Shown here in pieces: positions 41,061 through 45,520 of a stretch of 64,000 bases of DNA. The notes beneath the pieces were generated by a model. The model was not told where the DNA came from. It saw only the letters and a program-made list of their open reading frames with translations, and did no database searches. The position numbers and the translations under genes are program-made. The DNA is from an uncultured Alphaproteobacteria bacterium. GTDB taxonomy: Bacteria; Pseudomonadota; Alphaproteobacteria; RF32; CAG-239. The DNA is taken from the NCBI GenBank assembly GCA_944391505.1, contig CALXTV010000001.1:34651-98650 (forward strand), in the 5' to 3' direction. The stretch's first letter is position 1. The number at the start of each line of letters is the position of its first letter.

Positions 41061-41099
41061 ATAGGTTTCTGTGCTAGACGCCCATTATACAAACTTTTA

Positions 41100-41477
41100 C
41101 AAAAACCTCGGAGAACGAGGGAAATAATAAGGATTTAGGGAAAATAAAGCGGAATGTACATATTAGTACATGAGCATTTATTTTACCCGCTAATCCTGTA
41201 TTAGTTCCCCGCTATACGAGGTTTTCAAAAACCTCGGAGAACGAGGTGTATAGTAAGATTTAAGAGTGAAAAAAGCGGAGCATACATAAACGTATGTGAG
41301 CATTTATTTTACCCGCTAATCCTGTATTAGTTCCCCGCTATACGAGGTTTTCAAAAACCTCGGAGAACGAGGTGTATAGTAAGATTTAAGAGTGAAAAAA
41401 GCGGAGCATACATAAACGTATGTGAGCATTTTTTCAGCTCGCAAAATCTGTACTAGACACCCGTTATACGAGGTTTT
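41100..41477. repeat. Three tandem 126-bp palindromic units (RPE/REP-like)
   Basis: Units start at 41100, 41226 and 41352; each begins CAAAAACCTCG, ends CGAGGTTTT, with central hairpin GTACATATTAGTAC or CATACATAAACGTATG followed by TGAGCAT. Confidence 0.85.
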
Positions 41478-42192
41478 AAAGGCGGGACTTAAGATTAAAC
41501 GCCCTCTTCACAACCTCTGCAACGACACTCATCAGGAACGAAATGGAAATAAGAAACGAGATGAAGACAAACGAAACAAAGAACAGCCACGAATGGGGGA
41601 AAACCGCCATGACCGGACGCGCAATGTTCGAAGCCCAGCCGTCCAGAGTCACAACCTGCAACAGAGCAAACAGCGAAGACCCGAGATTGGAAAACTCGAT
41701 AAAGACGTCACCGAACAGACAAACGGCCATAATTGCAAAAACATAAACAAAAACCGCCATCACCAACAACATGGCCATAAAGTTCGGCAGCAGCGCGATA
41801 AAGATGTTAATCATCTGCTTAAGCCGCGTAAATTTGTTGACATAACGCAGCAGACGAAACAGACGAAACGTCCTGAGAATGATAAAATAGCTGGCAAAAG
41901 GAACCGACGAAATCACAATTACCGTAAAATCGAACACATTCCAACCCGACTTGAAGAACTTTTTGCCGAAAGCAAAAATCTTCATAATCATTTCGATAAT
42001 AAAGATGGCCATAAACAGACGGTCAAGAATAAACAAGCCGCCGTCAAAGAAAAGATTCATCTCTTCCGAAGTCATCAAACCCAGAATAACCGCGTCCATA
42101 CAAATCAGAGACATGATCAGGAAGTCAAAATTTTTGCCTTCCACCAGTTTTTTCACTCTGCGTCTGTCGGTTTCAACTGCACTTTTCTTCAT
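41476..42192 (-). CDS. Bacterial voltage-gated Na+/Ca2+ channel (BacNav family)
   Basis: WNVFDF, S4 LRTFRLFRLLR, filter TLDGWAS. Confidence 0.88.
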   Translation of the reverse strand: MKKSAVETDRRRVKKLVEGKNFDFLIMSLICMDAVILGLMTSEEMNLFFDGGLFILDRLFMAIFIIEMIMKIFAFGKKFFKSGWNVFDFTVIVISSVPFASYFIILRTFRLFRLLRYVNKFTRLKQMINIFIALLPNFMAMLLVMAVFVYVFAIMAVCLFGDVFIEFSNLGSSLFALLQVVTLDGWASNIARPVMAVFPHSWLFFVSFVFISFLISISFLMSVVAEVVKRAFNLKSRL

Positions 42193-42232
42193 GGTCAATA
42201 TCCTCAAAAATTTATCTGTTTTTCATTTTAGC

Positions 42233-42913
42233 CTAGAAAAAGTAAAAAGCAATCATTATTGCGGCAACCGTAATTGCCGGGCCGAAAGCACCGACCCGCA
42301 TCCGACGAAACAAAGCATACAGCACAAACAACAGGCTGGCCAGAATCATCGTATAAATTACCAGCTCCATACCCAGCCAGGCACCCAGCGCGGCCAACAA
42401 CTTAATATCGCCGCCGCCGAAAGCGTCTTTGTTTTTCCAAACCAGAAACGCACTGGCAATTACCGGCAGCATATACCCGGTTACGGCGCCGAGCACGCTC
42501 TCGGGCGGAATAACCCACTGACTGACAAAAACCGAATAGGCAAAACCGGCAATCAGCAGCGGCACGGTCAGAATATCCGGCAGCAGCATCATGCGGTTGT
42601 CGATTTCGGTTAAGAGCAGCAGCGTCCAAATCAACCCCAGATACCAGACGATATAAACGTCGCTGAAACGCTCTGCAGCCAGATAGCTGATTGCCGCGGC
42701 AACGATTCCCCAGCCGATGCTGCGCATGCGATACTTGGTCATCAGCCGTCGGTATGACGGATTTCCGGAACGTTTGGCGCGCGAAACGCTGCGAACCGGC
42801 CGGAGGATTCGATAAAGCGCATACGCCGGGGTTGCCGGCATAAACTTGCTGAAACGCCGGGCCAGATAAGGGATAAGAAGGCCGAAGACAAGGCCGTAAG
42901 CCGCATAAATCAT
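42233..42913 (-). CDS. Prepilin peptidase (A24 family), C-terminal-type
   Basis: EIDNRMMLLPD, FGGGDIKLLAALGAWLG, AFGPAI. Confidence 0.85.
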   Translation of the reverse strand: MIYAAYGLVFGLLIPYLARRFSKFMPATPAYALYRILRPVRSVSRAKRSGNPSYRRLMTKYRMRSIGWGIVAAAISYLAAERFSDVYIVWYLGLIWTLLLLTEIDNRMMLLPDILTVPLLIAGFAYSVFVSQWVIPPESVLGAVTGYMLPVIASAFLVWKNKDAFGGGDIKLLAALGAWLGMELVIYTMILASLLFVLYALFRRMRVGAFGPAITVAAIMIAFYFF

Positions 42914-43048
42914 TGCAATATTCCTGTTTGTTACGCTACCCGGAGCATAGCGTCAAAAGATTAAAATCAATTTAATGACCGAATATTAATTGCAAAATAG
43001 TTTTTTGCCTTTATAATCAGTCCTGCCATAAGAATGGTTAGACTTGTG

Positions 43049-43201
43049 GCGGAGCCTTCAAGCTCCTTATAGAGAACCGATTATATAACCTCCATCTATG
43101 GAGGATGACGCGAAATAAGCCGCTTTTGCGGACGAATAAGCGTGCTGTCTCTATACAGTTTGAAGCTCCTCCGCTCTCATTTTGAGAGCGGTTTTGTTTT
43201 T
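43049..43201 (+). promoter_or_regulatory. Structured leader / putative attenuator
   Basis: Long-range stem whose 3' strand overlaps terminator CCGCTCTC-atttt-GAGAGCGG-TTTTGTTTTT; promoter TTGCAA-16-TATAAT at 42990-43017. Confidence 0.55.
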
Positions 43202-43227
43202 AACAAAACCTTTTAACGGAGGAAGTT

Positions 43228-43461
43228 ATGGAACACGAAATCAGAAAACAGAATTTGCAACAACTGCGTTTAGAGTACGGCGAAAGTTTCCGCCGGGCTC
43301 TGGCAGAGCAGGGGCTGACGCCGGAAGAATTCAGCGAACAAAGCAAAATACCGCTGACCGTTGTCGAAGATCATTTAAGCGGTAAATTGCGCTTTCTCGG
43401 CGAAGTAAACAATATTTGTTTCCGCCTGAACAAGCGTCTGAAAGTGGAACTGGTTGACTGA
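43228..43461 (+). CDS. Small XRE-like HTH protein
   Basis: GESFRRALAEQGLTPEEFSEQSKIPLTVVEDHLSG; SD GGAGG; bidirectional terminator at about 43471-43497. Confidence 0.65.
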   Translation: MEHEIRKQNLQQLRLEYGESFRRALAEQGLTPEEFSEQSKIPLTVVEDHLSGKLRFLGEVNNICFRLNKRLKVELVD

Positions 43462-43507
43462 ACATTTCAAAAAAAAGCTCCCCGAAGGGAGCTTTTTCCG
43501 ATTAAAG

Positions 43508-45346
43508 TTAAAACGACTTGAGAATATATTCGCTCATCTTCTCGCTGTAAAAAGACGGGTCGCTGATACATTCGCCCTCGGCAATTTTCGCCTGATCCAA
43601 CAGCAGCCGCGACACTTCTTCGACTTTCGGCTTCAATGCCTCGTCACCCATGGCTTCCGCCAGTTTGATAATCAGCGGATGATACGGATTCAGCTCCAGA
43701 ATTCGCGTGCTGGCAAAAGCCGTTTGTTGCTGATGGTTGCGCATCAAACGTTCCAGATGAATGCTCATCTGCCCGGCTTCAACCGTCAGGCTGACCGGCG
43801 ATTTGGTCAGTTTGTCGGTGGTCGTAACCTTGCCGACTTCGTTCTTAAACATTTCGCCGAGCAAATCGGTCAGCTTTTTCAAATTGCCTTCTTCCGCCTT
43901 TTTGCCCTCACGCTTAAACGACAGGTCGACATCTGCCTGCGAAATATGTTTAACCGCAAAAGTCTTGTATGTTCCGAGCGTCTGCGTCCAGAACTCGTCA
44001 ATCGGATCGGTCAGCAGCAAAACCTCCAGCCCTTTTTCCTTAAAGGCTTCCAACTGCGGATTATTGACCAGCGTCTTGACGTCGTCACCGGTAATGTAAT
44101 AAATCGCTTTTTGTTCCGGTTTGGCACGGCCGATATAATCGTCAAGCGAAGTCAGTTTTTCAATGTCGTTGGTCGAAACAAAGCGCGACAACGCGGCAAT
44201 TTCTTCGCGATTGGCAAAATCTTCGTAAATGCCTTCCTTAAAGGCAATGCCGAAAGCATCCCAGAATTTTTTGTAGTCATCATAATCTTTGCTGCGTTTT
44301 TTCAACTCCTTGAGAATTCTGGAAACCGTTCCCTGCCGGATTTTGGCAATCAGCGGCGACTGTTGCAGCATCTCGCGGGAAATGTTCAGCGGCAGATCCG
44401 ACGAGTCGATAATGCCGCGCACAAAACGCAGATACGACGGCAGCAGCTCTTCAACCTTTTCAGAAATAAACACGCGGTTGACATAAAGCTTCAGCCCCTG
44501 CTTGCGATCCGGTTGAAACAGATCATACGGCGCCGTTCCGGGAATATAAAGCAGTCCGGTATATTCAATACTGCCCTCAGCCTTGAAATGCAGCGTCATC
44601 CACGGGTCGTCAAAATTCTTGGAAACATGATGATAAAATTCCTTATATTGTTCCGGCGTAATCTCGGCCTTGTTGCGCGTCCACAAAGCCGAAGCGCTGT
44701 TAACTGTTTCTTCGCCGGCCTTGCCCAGACACAGCACAATCGGATAATTGATATGGTCGGAATACGTACGGATAATCTGCCGCAGATAAATGCTGTCGGT
44801 ATAGTTTTTCTCGTCTTTTTTCAAAAACAGCTTGATTTCCGTACCGTTTGTTTTCTTCTCCGCCTCACGGATTTCAAAGCCGTCCACACCGTTGGAAACC
44901 CAGAACCAGGCTTTGTCCTCGCCGGCGCGCCGGGTCAGAATTTCAACCTTGTCGGCCACCATAAACGCCGAATAAAACCCGACGCCGAACTGTCCGATTA
45001 AGTCCACTGCCGAACCGTTGTCGGAAGCGTTTTTCACAAAATCGGCAGTGCCTGATTTGGCAATCGTGCCCAGATGGTTAATCAAATCGTCACGGTTCAT
45101 GCCGATTCCGTTATCGGCAACCGTCAGCGTGTTTTTCTCCGCATCCGGCGTAATCCATATCTTCATCTCGCCGGATTCCTTGGCAATGTCCGGATGTGTC
45201 AGCGCCATATATTTCAGTTTGTCGCAGGCATCGCTGGCATTCGAAATCAATTCGCGTAAAAAAATCTGCTTTTCCGAATACAGCGAATTAACCACGATAT
45301 CGAGCATTTTACTGACATCGGCCTGAAAATTCATCTTATCGCTCAT
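43508..45346 (-). CDS. htpG: Chaperone HtpG (Hsp90)
   Basis: FLRELISNASDA, DNGIGM, GQFGVGFYS, LPLNISRE; start MSDK at 45346. Confidence 0.98.
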   Translation of the reverse strand: MSDKMNFQADVSKMLDIVVNSLYSEKQIFLRELISNASDACDKLKYMALTHPDIAKESGEMKIWITPDAEKNTLTVADNGIGMNRDDLINHLGTIAKSGTADFVKNASDNGSAVDLIGQFGVGFYSAFMVADKVEILTRRAGEDKAWFWVSNGVDGFEIREAEKKTNGTEIKLFLKKDEKNYTDSIYLRQIIRTYSDHINYPIVLCLGKAGEETVNSASALWTRNKAEITPEQYKEFYHHVSKNFDDPWMTLHFKAEGSIEYTGLLYIPGTAPYDLFQPDRKQGLKLYVNRVFISEKVEELLPSYLRFVRGIIDSSDLPLNISREMLQQSPLIAKIRQGTVSRILKELKKRSKDYDDYKKFWDAFGIAFKEGIYEDFANREEIAALSRFVSTNDIEKLTSLDDYIGRAKPEQKAIYYITGDDVKTLVNNPQLEAFKEKGLEVLLLTDPIDEFWTQTLGTYKTFAVKHISQADVDLSFKREGKKAEEGNLKKLTDLLGEMFKNEVGKVTTTDKLTKSPVSLTVEAGQMSIHLERLMRNHQQQTAFASTRILELNPYHPLIIKLAEAMGDEALKPKVEEVSRLLLDQAKIAEGECISDPSFYSEKMSEYILKSF

Positions 45347-45520
45347 TATTTTTCTCCCGAACAATATTTTTTCTGATTTAACCAATATATGGGAAGCAGA
45401 GCACCGTTTCGCAAGTTTGCCGGCGCAAAAAAATCCCCCTGCCGACTTTTTTACTTGCATTTCGGGATAAAATTGCTAAATTGAAGCCGATGTTTACAAT
45501 TAATTTTTAGGAGTTATATC

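What the first reader, a model, noticed from the sequence alone, without database searches (positions are those of the whole stretch)
42990..43461. Switch-like RNA leader controlling a small HTH gene
After a promoter, 43049-43174 folds into a long stem (GCGGAG/CTCCGC, TTCAAGCT/AGTTTGAA, TATAGAGA/TCTCTATA) capped by two hairpins (CCTCCAT/ATGGAGG, CCGC/GCGG). Its 3' CCGC is also the 5' arm of a terminator (43171-43201). A local hairpin GGAGC-cttcaa-GCTCC (43051-43066) competes for the 5' strand. These are mutually exclusive terminator and antiterminator folds. It matches no riboswitch I recognise and could instead be an independent ~170-nt sRNA.
Basis: partly seen in the sequence, partly recalled or inferred. 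Interest (0 to 1): 0.6.

Follow-up and report, generated by a model that had tools for sequence, protein, structure and literature searches.

The report
Multicopy two-state RNA leader, sRNA-Xcc1-like
The flagged stretch is one of 16 dispersed copies in this small gut bacterial genome of a roughly 175-base structured RNA, a distant and longer relative of the known small RNA sRNA-Xcc1, which sits in front of a tiny DNA-binding regulator gene and looks built to hide or expose that gene's ribosome-binding site.

Summary
The fold is far better than chance (z = -5.5).

- **Multicopy.** The RNA is not a one-off. A promoter-RNA-terminator-small XRE HTH gene module occurs 16 times in this 1.74 Mb genome. 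It was found in 122 of 151 genomes of the family (uncultured gut Alphaproteobacteria), up to 21 or more per genome, sometimes as tandem RNA arrays.
- **Insertion polymorphism.** The module is missing from the same pilD/htpG site in four congeners.
- **Long-range fold.** Covariation strongly supports it (39 of 48 pairs show double changes).
- **Relation to a known family.** The 3' 85 nt resemble Rfam sRNA-Xcc1 (RF02221) below threshold: 18 bits here, 21-38 bits in sister subtypes, cut-off 53.
- **Two exclusive pairings.** A G-rich strand (43099-43105) pairs either with a C-strand (hairpin P4) or with the C-rich anti-SD segment (43167-43173). Both pairings covary.
- **Cis action.** The anti-SD segment also matches the downstream ribosome-binding site. 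That match co-varies across subtypes that precede other genes (outer-membrane proteins, lipoproteins).

I read it as a cis-acting, two-state leader that is also released as an sRNA. The trigger is unknown. Other copies were noted earlier in this scan but not followed up.

The parts
42986..43497 (+). Whole repeated module: promoter, RNA, terminator T1, small HTH gene, terminator T2.
   Evidence: Homology between the 16 copies starts within 5 nt of the -35 box and ends just after the HTH gene and its terminator; the flanks are unrelated. The module is absent from the orthologous pilD/htpG spacer in G001, G004, G005 and G006.
42990..43017 (+). Sigma-70-type promoter TTGCAA-16-TATAAT.
   Evidence: A promoter of this kind lies directly upstream of 96 of 100 copies.
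43023..43052 (+). P1, the 5' hairpin (CUGCCAU / GUGGCGG).
   Evidence: 7 pairs, 4 with double changes, 97.6% paired.
43051..43066 (+). SD-like GGAG, the 5' strand of P2, and a local CUCC. This local hairpin is an alternative to P2.
   Evidence: It reads GGAG/CUCC in about 70 copies, GGUG/CAUC in 27 and GGUG/CACC in 1, and is always complementary.
43057..43075 (+). 5' strands of the long-range helices P2 (43057-64) and P3 (43068-75).
   Evidence: 7 of 8 pairs in each helix carry double changes.
43089..43094 (+). C-strand, the 5' arm of hairpin P4.
   Evidence: It covaries with the G-strand: cognate -9.8 against -8.6 kcal/mol, permutation p < 2e-4.
43099..43105 (+). G-strand UGGAGGA. It is both the 3' arm of P4 and the 5' strand of the sRNA-Xcc1-like outer helix.
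43108..43143 (+). P5/P6 hairpin with the conserved internal loop GAAAUAAG / ACGAAUAA.
   Evidence: The loop motif is shared with the sRNA-Xcc1 consensus and is invariant across subtypes.
43144..43164 (+). 3' strands of P3 and P2. Alternatively this stretch forms the local hairpin GCUGU/ACAGU (43144-48 / 43155-59), which is hairpin 2 of the Xcc1-like fold.
43165..43174 (+). C-rich anti-SD segment GCUCCUCCGC. Its partners are the G-strand, the downstream SD, or the 5' GGAG, and it overlaps the first 4 nt of the terminator stem.
43171..43201 (+). Intrinsic terminator T1: a 9-bp stem and a UUUUGUUUUU tract.
   Evidence: The stem covaries: 7 of 7 pairs carry double changes.
43202..43210 (+). A-box AACAAAACC, complementary to GGUUUUGUU of the U-tract.
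   Evidence: The compensated variant GGUUUC/GAAACC occurs in L063 and L075. The hairpin appears in the read-through MFE.
43217..43223 (+). Ribosome-binding site CGGAGGA of the HTH gene, complementary to UCCUCCG (43167-73).
43228..43461 (+). 77-aa XRE-type helix-turn-helix protein gene.
   Evidence: A family profile hits C.BclI at E = 4e-10. AlphaFold2 gives pLDDT 95.8. Foldseek's best matches are C.BclI, ClgR and HipB.
43470..43497 (.). Bidirectional terminator hairpin T2, shared with convergent htpG (43508-45460, minus strand).

Best explanation
Window 43024-43201 encodes a ~177-nt structured RNA. It is a divergent, full-length member of the superfamily whose 3' domain Rfam knows as sRNA-Xcc1.

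A strong promoter drives it and an intrinsic terminator ends most transcripts, so it accumulates as a small RNA. Read-through is the only way to transcribe the 77-aa XRE HTH gene 27 nt downstream, so it is also that gene's leader.

The C-rich segment just before the terminator (43165-43174) is an anti-ribosome-binding-site sequence.
- **Fold A, the long-range fold (P2, P3, P4).** The G-strand 43099-43105 is locked in hairpin P4. The C-rich segment is therefore free, the terminator forms, and in read-through RNA the segment clamps the RBS (43217-43223): OFF.
- **Fold B, the sRNA-Xcc1-like fold.** The G-strand pairs with the C-rich segment and with the first 3 nt of the terminator stem. This frees the RBS and weakens the terminator: ON.

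**Shown:** both helices and the RBS match are conserved through compensatory changes.
**Inferred:** which state gives which output.
**Unknown:** what shifts the balance (a ligand, a protein, or RNase cleavage in the P4 loop).

The whole 0.5-kb module is a gained-and-lost, multiplying unit.
For: **Real structured RNA.** z = -5.5. 22 of 48 pairs are compensatory among 15 paralogues. On 42 homologues, 39 of 48 pairs carry double changes and 96.5% of cells pair.

**Multicopy and widespread.**
- 16 copies in the own genome.
- 122 of 151 genomes and 20 of 23 genera of the family.
- The second family of the order and four other families of the class.

**Linked to the gene.**
- 82 of 100 copies are followed by an HTH gene and 9 by another RNA copy.
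- 15 of 16 members of this HTH subfamily in the genome are RNA-linked.

**Cis logic.** The anti-SD and SD flanks co-vary.
- AACUCC/GGAGUU against AGCUCC/GGAGCU.
- AACUUCC/GGAAGUU before outer-membrane-protein genes.
- GAACAUCC/GGAUGUUC before a lipoprotein gene in this same genome.
- 12 bp in L083.
- Cognate helices average 8.0 bp against 6.0 bp for non-cognate pairs.
- The read-through MFE shows the clamp in the window copy and in 38 of 84 copies.

**Two-state core.**
- 97 of 99 copies have at least 6 contiguous bp between the G-strand and the anti-SD segment, in more than 30 sequence versions. These include GGAGGAG/CUCCUCC, GGUGGAG/CUCCACC, GGCGGAG/CUCCGCC and GAGGGAG/CUCCCUC.
- Cognate pairs give -14.0 against -11.7 kcal/mol, p < 2e-4.
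- The same G-strand covaries with the P4 5' arm.

**Relation to sRNA-Xcc1.**
- RF02221 hits the 3' domain over model positions 1-87 in every subtype.
- My model R1 detects RF02221-positive loci L150 and L154 in return.
- In 9 of 13 RF02221-hit loci the upstream ~110 nt is strongly complementary to the P3/P2 3' strands (z <= -2.8), and in 7 the long-range P2/P3 fold forms in the MFE.
Against: - There is no expression data, so the transcript ends, termination efficiency and any processing are all inferred.
- Fold A is predicted to be 16 kcal/mol more stable than Fold B in the full RNA. Fold B therefore needs an unidentified helper, or loss of the 5' half.
- The RF02221 score of the window copy is only 18.4 bits (E = 2.1) against a 53-bit cut-off.
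- Pairing of the 5' GGAG with the anti-SD segment shows no covariation and is broken (U.U) in 28 copies.
- Within the HTH-linked types alone, the cognate versus non-cognate SD/anti-SD energy difference is small (p = 0.07). Any strong SD would pair with CUCC.
- The permutation tests ignore relatedness between copies.
- Tandem arrays in which each copy has its own promoter and terminator fit a trans-acting sRNA as well as they fit a leader.
Confidence: 0.6

Rival explanations
1. It is chiefly an independent trans-acting small RNA, as sRNA-Xcc1 was described. Its exposed C-rich segment would mask ribosome-binding sites of mRNAs elsewhere. The HTH gene would be only a neighbour, or the RNA's transcriptional regulator.
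For: - It has its own strong promoter and terminator.
- Tandem arrays of 2-4 complete promoter-RNA-terminator units occur.
- A few copies have no HTH gene (L073, L120).
- sRNA-Xcc1 was validated by Northern blot as an 88-nt sRNA (PMC2996969), and Xylella has seven copies (PMC12189769).
- Anti-SD sRNAs are common in Alphaproteobacteria (cuckoo RNAs, PMC4615179).
Against: - 91 of 96 resolvable copies lead directly or through an array into an HTH gene that starts about 25-40 nt after the terminator and has no promoter of its own.
- The anti-SD flank co-varies with the RBS flank of whichever gene lies downstream, across gene classes. Cis or cognate action explains this most simply.
Confidence: 0.2
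2. It is a classical ligand-binding riboswitch. The GCGGAG/CUCCGC antiterminator would compete with the terminator.
For: - The core looks like an aptamer: a three-way junction with invariant junction and internal-loop bases and variable, covarying stems.
- In the window copy the nascent-RNA MFE pairs GUGG (43046-49) with CCGC (43171-74).
- The antiterminator helix has more double-change cells than shuffles give (20 against 9.9, 0 of 500 shuffles).
Against: - 35-41% of cells are unpaired at two of the six antiterminator positions.
- Only 23 of 97 copies show an antiterminator in the nascent MFE.
- The terminated state is 11 kcal/mol more stable than the antiterminated one.
- The downstream genes (XRE regulators, outer-membrane proteins, lipoproteins, a methyltransferase) share no pathway that would point to a ligand.
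- No Rfam riboswitch matches.
Confidence: 0.1
3. It is a selfish or addiction-type module. The RNA would restrain translation of a potentially harmful small DNA-binding protein, as in a type I toxin-antitoxin pair, and this would explain the spread and turnover.
For: - sRNA-Xcc1 lies upstream of the toxin gene symE in integron cassettes (bioRxiv 10.1101/2025.06.18.660453) and upstream of an ORF6N gene in APSE phages (10.1101/2020.03.17.996009).
- The module is present or absent at the same site among congeners.
- Copy number ranges from 0 to at least 21 between related genomes.
- One copy has a truncated HTH gene (C2:53382).
Against: - XRE HTH proteins of this size are normally regulators or antitoxins, not toxins.
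- Sister subtypes precede ordinary envelope-protein genes.
- No match in phage, plasmid or viral collections.
- No transposase, inverted ends or target duplication were seen.
Confidence: 0.07
4. It is a non-functional dispersed repeat (MITE- or REP-like) that merely folds because of inverted repeats.
For: - It is multicopy with sharply bounded homology.
- Copies often lie at contig ends.
- 14 of 16 copies sit next to the terminator of a convergent gene.
Against: - Copies are 71-95% identical, yet pairing is kept by compensatory changes in every helix.
- The promoter, terminator and RBS geometry are conserved across 20 genera and beyond.
- Each unit carries an intact gene.
Confidence: 0.03

Closest known systems
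sRNA-Xcc1 (Rfam RF02221; Xanthomonas campestris, 88 nt)
   Same: - The 3' 85 nt (43098-43182) align to the whole 87-position model. So do all sister subtypes, at 21-38.5 bits.
- The architecture is the same: a G-rich/C-rich outer helix enclosing a hairpin with an AAUA...GAAUA internal loop and a second short hairpin.
- Both lie upstream of small genes and both are multicopy or tandem (PMC12189769; bioRxiv 10.1101/2025.06.18.660453).
- Scores form a continuum from 70 down to 28 bits in 27 of 151 genomes of the class.
   Different: - The scores are far below the 53-bit cut-off.
- This RNA is twice as long. Its 5' half pairs with, and so dismantles, the Xcc1 fold. A matching upstream strand is also present at 9 of 13 RF02221-hit loci tested, but the Rfam model does not include it.
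- It has its own terminator after the outer helix.
- It is chromosomal and dispersed, not in integrons, plasmids or phages.
- The downstream gene is an XRE HTH gene.
Translational riboswitch/attenuator expression platforms (anti-SD and anti-anti-SD strands plus an intrinsic terminator)
   Same: - A C-rich strand can pair with the RBS or with an upstream G-rich mimic.
- The terminator overlaps the switching strand.
- The core is structured and conserved.
   Different: - No ligand or sensed signal is known.
- The downstream genes are not a metabolic set.
- Every unit brings its own promoter.
- There are 16 to 21 or more copies per 1.7 Mb genome.
Cuckoo / CcsR / alpha-r14 (NfeR1) anti-SD sRNAs of Alphaproteobacteria (PMC4615179, PMC8034643, PMC10746234)
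   Same: - Alphaproteobacterial.
- Multicopy, and clustered in up to 9 copies.
- They carry CCUCC-type anti-SD motifs.
   Different: - Those RNAs are 2-4 simple hairpins with CCUCCUCCC in the loops, and they act in trans.
- Here the anti-SD is a 3' strand with alternative partners inside a 175-nt multi-helix fold, tied to the gene immediately downstream.
- No Rfam hit to those families.
Phage P1 c4 / P4 CI-type leader-derived antisense RNAs; type III toxin-antitoxin layout (promoter, RNA, terminator, protein gene)
   Same: - The RNA is made from the same promoter as the gene it masks.
- A terminator sets the RNA:protein ratio.
- The RNA could act on sibling copies in trans.
   Different: - No sequence or structural relation.
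- The protein here is an HTH regulator, not an antirepressor or a nuclease.
- This comparison rests on my own knowledge and was not tested here.
Restriction-modification controller (C) proteins, ClgR, HipB (for the downstream protein)
   Same: - A 77-aa single XRE domain. The family profile gives E = 4e-10 to C.BclI.
- TM-score 0.70 and rmsd 1.5 A to 2b5a.
- The C-terminal strand-like K-x-I-x-I-x-L-x-D tail resembles that of HipB.
   Different: - No restriction-modification or HipA partner gene is adjacent.
- The window's own copy has no significant Pfam hit.

Membership tests
sRNA-Xcc1 (RF02221) | Covariance-model score at or above the Rfam gathering score (53 bits). | tested here: not met
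   The window copy scores 18.4 bits, E = 2.1. HTH-linked relatives score 21-30.5 bits. Sister subtypes score 30.8-38.5 bits.
sRNA-Xcc1 (RF02221) | Fold: an outer G/C-rich helix enclosing hairpin 1 (with the AAUA...GAAUA internal loop) and hairpin 2. | tested here: met
   The isolated 3' domain folds this way. The alignments cover model positions 1-87. The outer helix covaries.
sRNA-Xcc1 (RF02221) | Reciprocal detection and a continuum of intermediates. | tested here: met
   R1 finds RF02221-positive loci L150 and L154 at E = 2e-4 to 5e-4. RF02221 scores run continuously from 70 to 28 bits in the class.
sRNA-Xcc1 (RF02221) | Carried on integron cassettes, transposons, plasmids or phages. | tested here: not met
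   No match in the phage, plasmid or IMG/VR collections. The copies sit among housekeeping genes.
Ligand-binding riboswitch with terminator/antiterminator | A conserved, mutually exclusive terminator and antiterminator. | tested here: inconclusive
   81.6% paired against 80.3% in shuffles, with some excess of double changes but 35-41% unpaired at two positions. 23 of 97 copies show it in the nascent MFE. It is present in the window copy.
Ligand-binding riboswitch with terminator/antiterminator | A specific ligand and a coherent regulon. | not testable with these tools
   The downstream genes are XRE regulators, outer-membrane proteins, lipoproteins and a pilin. No pathway signal emerges.
6S RNA | A match to RF00013, or a long duplex with a central bubble. 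| tested here: not met
   No Rfam hit even at E <= 10. The fold is a three-way junction.
Cuckoo / CcsR anti-SD sRNAs | 2-4 adjacent hairpins with CCUCCUCCC in each loop (PMC4615179). | tested here: not met
   The consensus structure places the C-rich motifs in stems or in a 3' strand. No Rfam hit.
MITE / REP-type repeat | Terminal inverted repeats, target-site duplication, no gene. | tested here: not met
   The unit carries a promoter and an intact gene. No inverted ends or duplication appear at the filled versus empty site.
XRE / Cro-C1 HTH (downstream protein) | An HTH_3-type domain by sequence and by fold. | tested here: met
   The paralogue in L024 scores 24.4 bits on HTH_3 against a 23-bit cut-off. 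The family profile gives E = 4e-10 to C.BclI. AlphaFold2 gives pLDDT 95.8 with four helices. Foldseek top hits are all XRE proteins. The window copy alone is below the Pfam cut-offs.

The most novel reading that the evidence does not exclude
The family known as sRNA-Xcc1 is only the 3' half of a portable, bistable ~180-nt expression cassette: promoter, 5' 'unlocking' strands, Xcc1 domain, anti-RBS strand, terminator. This cassette travels with small genes. In uncultured gut Alphaproteobacteria it has multiplied to 16-21 or more copies per 1.2-1.9 Mb genome, where it gates a whole family of XRE regulators as well as envelope-protein genes. The two folds would be toggled by a signal not yet known: a new ligand, a protein, or RNase processing in the P4 loop that releases the 88-nt form.
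Probability: 0.35. Interest if true: 0.75.

Novelty: new variant of a known kind. Interest (0 to 1): 0.62.

Why it matters
- **A poorly understood family gets a testable mechanism.** sRNA-Xcc1 is in Rfam and has been linked to virulence regulators, integron cassettes and toxin genes. Its mechanism is not described in any of the papers I could read. This locus and its roughly 800 relatives supply the comparative evidence: a longer transcript, two exclusive folds that both covary, and an anti-RBS strand matched to the gene downstream.
- **A large lineage-specific expansion.** A small-genome gut lineage with no cultured model spends about 1% of its genes on one RNA-gated regulator family.
- **A new class of regulator if a trigger is found.** Such a trigger would define a widespread regulatory RNA class on both chromosomes and mobile elements.

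Tried and rejected
- **Rfam.** Nothing at gathering thresholds on the whole window. At E <= 10 there was no 6S, riboswitch, T-box, CsrB/Rsm or alpha-r family; the only consistent hit was sub-threshold RF02221.
- **Small ORFs inside the RNA.** The frames are not conserved. One paralogue, for example, reads ATG GCA TGA.
- **Extended SD pairing into the variable part of P2.** The contiguous extension is no better than for non-cognate pairs (2.28 against 2.27 nt, p = 0.48).
- **P2a (GGAGN:NCUCC).** No covariation.
- **HTH-specific operators.** Neither the promoter spacer nor the post-terminator palindrome fits. Both are invariant across five diverged HTH groups, and the palindrome's spacing varies between genera. 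This fits an RNA hairpin better than a protein-binding site.
- **Phage, plasmid and viral collections.** No match.
- **Profile search of the HTH family against 1.8 billion proteins.** It returned only generic XRE repeats and was uninformative.
- **Literature searches.** None found a paper on this RNA in RF32/CAG-239-type bacteria.
- **Chen et al. 2011 (the sRNA-Xcc1 paper).** It could not be read.
- **Not run.** No complex prediction was attempted.
- **Unpublished genome.** The tally of 27 of 151 genomes includes one unpublished genome (G216, two weak matches).
Full report
**1. Observation**

- A TTGCAA-16-TATAAT promoter at 42990-43017, and a 9-bp terminator stem with a U-run at 43171-43201.
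- Between them, a fold of -62 kcal/mol against -39.8 +/- 4 for shuffles (z = -5.5).

In the MFE the basal stem uses GGAGC/GCUCC, so the long stem and the terminator coexist. No Rfam family reaches its threshold anywhere near the site.

**2. It is a repeated module**

BLAST and a covariance model find 16 copies in the window's own 1.74 Mb genome, at 71-95% identity.
- Homology begins within 5 nt of the -35 box and ends just after a small gene and its terminator. The flanks are unrelated.
- Each unit consists of a promoter, a ~175-nt RNA, terminator T1, a 75-110-aa gene and terminator T2.
- 14 of 16 units sit in front of a convergent gene.
- At the window's site the module is present in the closest relative (G002). 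It is absent from the 100-bp pilD/htpG spacer in four other species of the genus.

Record titles of matching contigs name uncultured gut Alphaproteobacteria, for example Candidatus Scatocola faecigallinarum. Model R1 gave these counts:
- 122 of 151 genomes and 20 of 23 genera of the family;
- the second family of the order;
- weaker matches in four other families of the class.

Counts per genome reach the scoring cap (17-21), so they are lower bounds. Tandem arrays of 2-4 complete promoter-RNA-terminator units occur. A promoter lies upstream of 96 of 100 copies. Nothing matches in phage, plasmid or viral collections.

**3. The structure is real**
- Among 15 paralogues, 22 of 48 predicted pairs show compensatory changes.
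- On 42 homologues from many genera, 96.5% of cells pair and 39 of 48 pairs have double changes. With slid partners, 38-48% pair and 18-21 pairs have double changes.

The alignment was fitted to the model, which inflates these figures somewhat. The margin is large enough that this does not change the conclusion.

The consensus is P1, then long-range helices P2 and P3 closing a three-way junction. Hairpin P4 (CCUCC/GGAGG) and the P5/P6 arm branch from that junction. The P5/P6 internal loop (GAAAUAAG / CGAAUAA) is nearly invariant.

**4. The downstream gene**

The proteins fall into at least five diverged groups but align end to end.
- The family profile matches XRE proteins: C.BclI at E = 4e-10, also DdrO, HipB and C.AhdI.
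- The window's protein folds with pLDDT 95.8 and superposes on C.BclI, ClgR and HipB.
- In this genome, 15 of 16 members of the subfamily are RNA-linked.
- Of 100 RNA copies from more than 40 genomes, 82 precede such a gene, 9 precede another RNA copy, 4 are cut by contig ends and 5 have none.

The gene starts 25-40 nt after T1 and has no promoter of its own. Read-through is therefore its only evident source of transcription.

**5. Evidence for cis action**

The C-rich segment between P2 and T1 is complementary to the ribosome-binding site, and the flanks change together.
- AACUCC with GGAGUU in about 48 copies, none of them with CU.
- AGCUCC with GGAGCU in 10 of about 22 copies.

The stronger evidence comes from divergent subtypes of the same RNA that precede other genes.

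| Subtype | Downstream gene | Anti-SD / SD |
|---|---|---|
| Genus g10 | outer-membrane beta-barrel proteins | AACUUCC / GGAAGUU |
| Own genome, C11:21615-21835 | lipoprotein | GAACAUCC / GGAUGUUC |
| L082, another family | TM2-domain protein | AACAUCC / GGAUGUU |
| L083, another family | signal-peptide (secreted) protein | UUUUCGAACAUC / GGUGUUCGAAAA (12 bp) |

Cognate helices average 8.0 bp against 6.0 bp for non-cognate pairs. In the read-through MFE of the window copy, the anti-SD:SD helix closes around the terminator hairpin and a second hairpin. That second hairpin forms between the U-tract (GGUUUUGUU) and a conserved A-box (AACAAAACC). The same clamp appears in 38 of 84 copies. The A-box variant GAAACC accompanies a GGUUUC tract in L063 and L075.

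**6. Relation to sRNA-Xcc1, and the two-state core**

RF02221 hits the 3' domain of every subtype over its whole 87 positions, always below the 53-bit cut-off.
- The window copy scores 18.4 bits.
- Sister subtypes score 30.8-38.5 bits.
- 8 of 20 HTH-linked loci score 21-30.5 bits.

In the class, RF02221 scores run continuously from 70 to 28 bits in 27 of 151 genomes. R1 detects two of those loci in return.

In the Xcc1 fold, the G-strand that forms the 3' arm of P4 (43099-43105) pairs instead with the anti-SD segment (43167-43173). The 3' strand of P3 becomes a local hairpin. The isolated 3' domain of the window RNA folds exactly this way.
- 97 of 99 copies can form at least 6 contiguous pairs here, in more than 30 sequence versions.
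- The variable middle base takes all four Watson-Crick states: GGAGGAG/CUCCUCC, GGUGGAG/CUCCACC, GGCGGAG/CUCCGCC and GGGGGAG/CUCCCCC.
- Cognate pairs are 2.3 kcal/mol better than non-cognate pairs (p < 2e-4; relatedness is not corrected for).
- The same G-strand covaries with the P4 5' arm.

The 3' flank of the anti-SD segment follows the G-strand, and its 5' flank follows the SD. Both competing helices therefore appear to be under selection.

Most loci with RF02221 hits also carry an upstream partner for the P3/P2 3' strands, of the form GGAG-[P2 5']-CUCC-[P3 5']. In 9 of 13 loci the upstream ~110 nt is strongly complementary (z <= -2.8), and in 7 the long-range fold forms in the MFE. The Rfam model thus seems to describe only half of the element.

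The literature I could read agrees with this picture.
- An 88-nt sRNA validated by Northern blot (PMC2996969).
- Located upstream of symE in integron cassettes (bioRxiv 10.1101/2025.06.18.660453).
- Seven copies in Xylella, five of them about 385 nt apart (PMC12189769).
- Located upstream of an ORF6N gene in APSE phage (10.1101/2020.03.17.996009).

**7.

GCGGAG/CUCCGC can pair. In the window copy the nascent-RNA MFE shows a related antiterminator, GUGG:CCGC. Family-wide the helix is weak, and only 23 of 97 copies show one in the nascent MFE. The terminated state is 11 kcal/mol more stable. Fold B overlaps the terminator stem by only 3 nt. Any effect on termination is therefore uncertain.

**8. 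Open points**
- Fold A is 16 kcal/mol more stable than Fold B, and nothing here identifies what would favour B.
- The local GGAG...CUCC hairpin (GGUG...CAUC in the second type) is always complementary, but its role is unexplained.
- How the module moves is unknown.
- Three other copies were noted by first readers in this scan (two in this genome, one in another). None had a follow-up.

Noticed in passing
window 41096-41477: A 126-bp unit repeated three times in tandem (87% matches), lying between a 179-aa ORF and the ion-channel gene. Related stretches lie near two other RNA-HTH modules (the C8 and C1:187180 flanks).
   Followed up: partly
L140:1056-1290 (own genome, C11:21615-21849): A divergent subtype of the same RNA, with its own promoter and terminator. 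It precedes a lipoprotein gene (MKRILIIMIAVLYMSGC...), and its RBS GGAUGUUC matches the RNA's GAACAUCC. It scores 33.6 bits on RF02221.
   Followed up: partly
L027:3034-3290 (own genome, C2:53382-53650): An RNA copy whose HTH gene is reduced to a 14-codon remnant by an internal deletion.
   Followed up: no
L025:2719-3231 (own genome, C1:186898-187410, minus strand): A degenerate copy. The RNA loses its 3' strands and terminator after P5, and runs into an HTH gene with a 33-aa N-terminal extension.
   Followed up: no
own genome, C5:76648-76947 (minus strand): The only member of the HTH subfamily (60.8 bits on the family profile) with no RNA upstream.
   Followed up: no
L067:770-1945, L060:1255-2195, L076, L123, L012: Tandem arrays of 2-4 complete promoter-RNA-terminator units, period about 245 nt, ending in one HTH gene. 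In L067 the array mixes the two RNA types (GGUG and GGAG).
   Followed up: partly
L143 (G039:C1:749745-751817): Three bona fide sRNA-Xcc1 copies (56-58 bits) spaced 994 nt apart, each followed by a 104-aa gene of unknown function. This is the same modular layout, in another alphaproteobacterial family.
   Followed up: no
window 41476-42207 (minus strand) and 42233-42913 (minus strand): A single-domain voltage-gated-type ion channel (Pfam Ion_trans, E = 1.6e-31) next to a prepilin peptidase (Peptidase_A24). Both are ordinary genes flanking the module.
   Followed up: no
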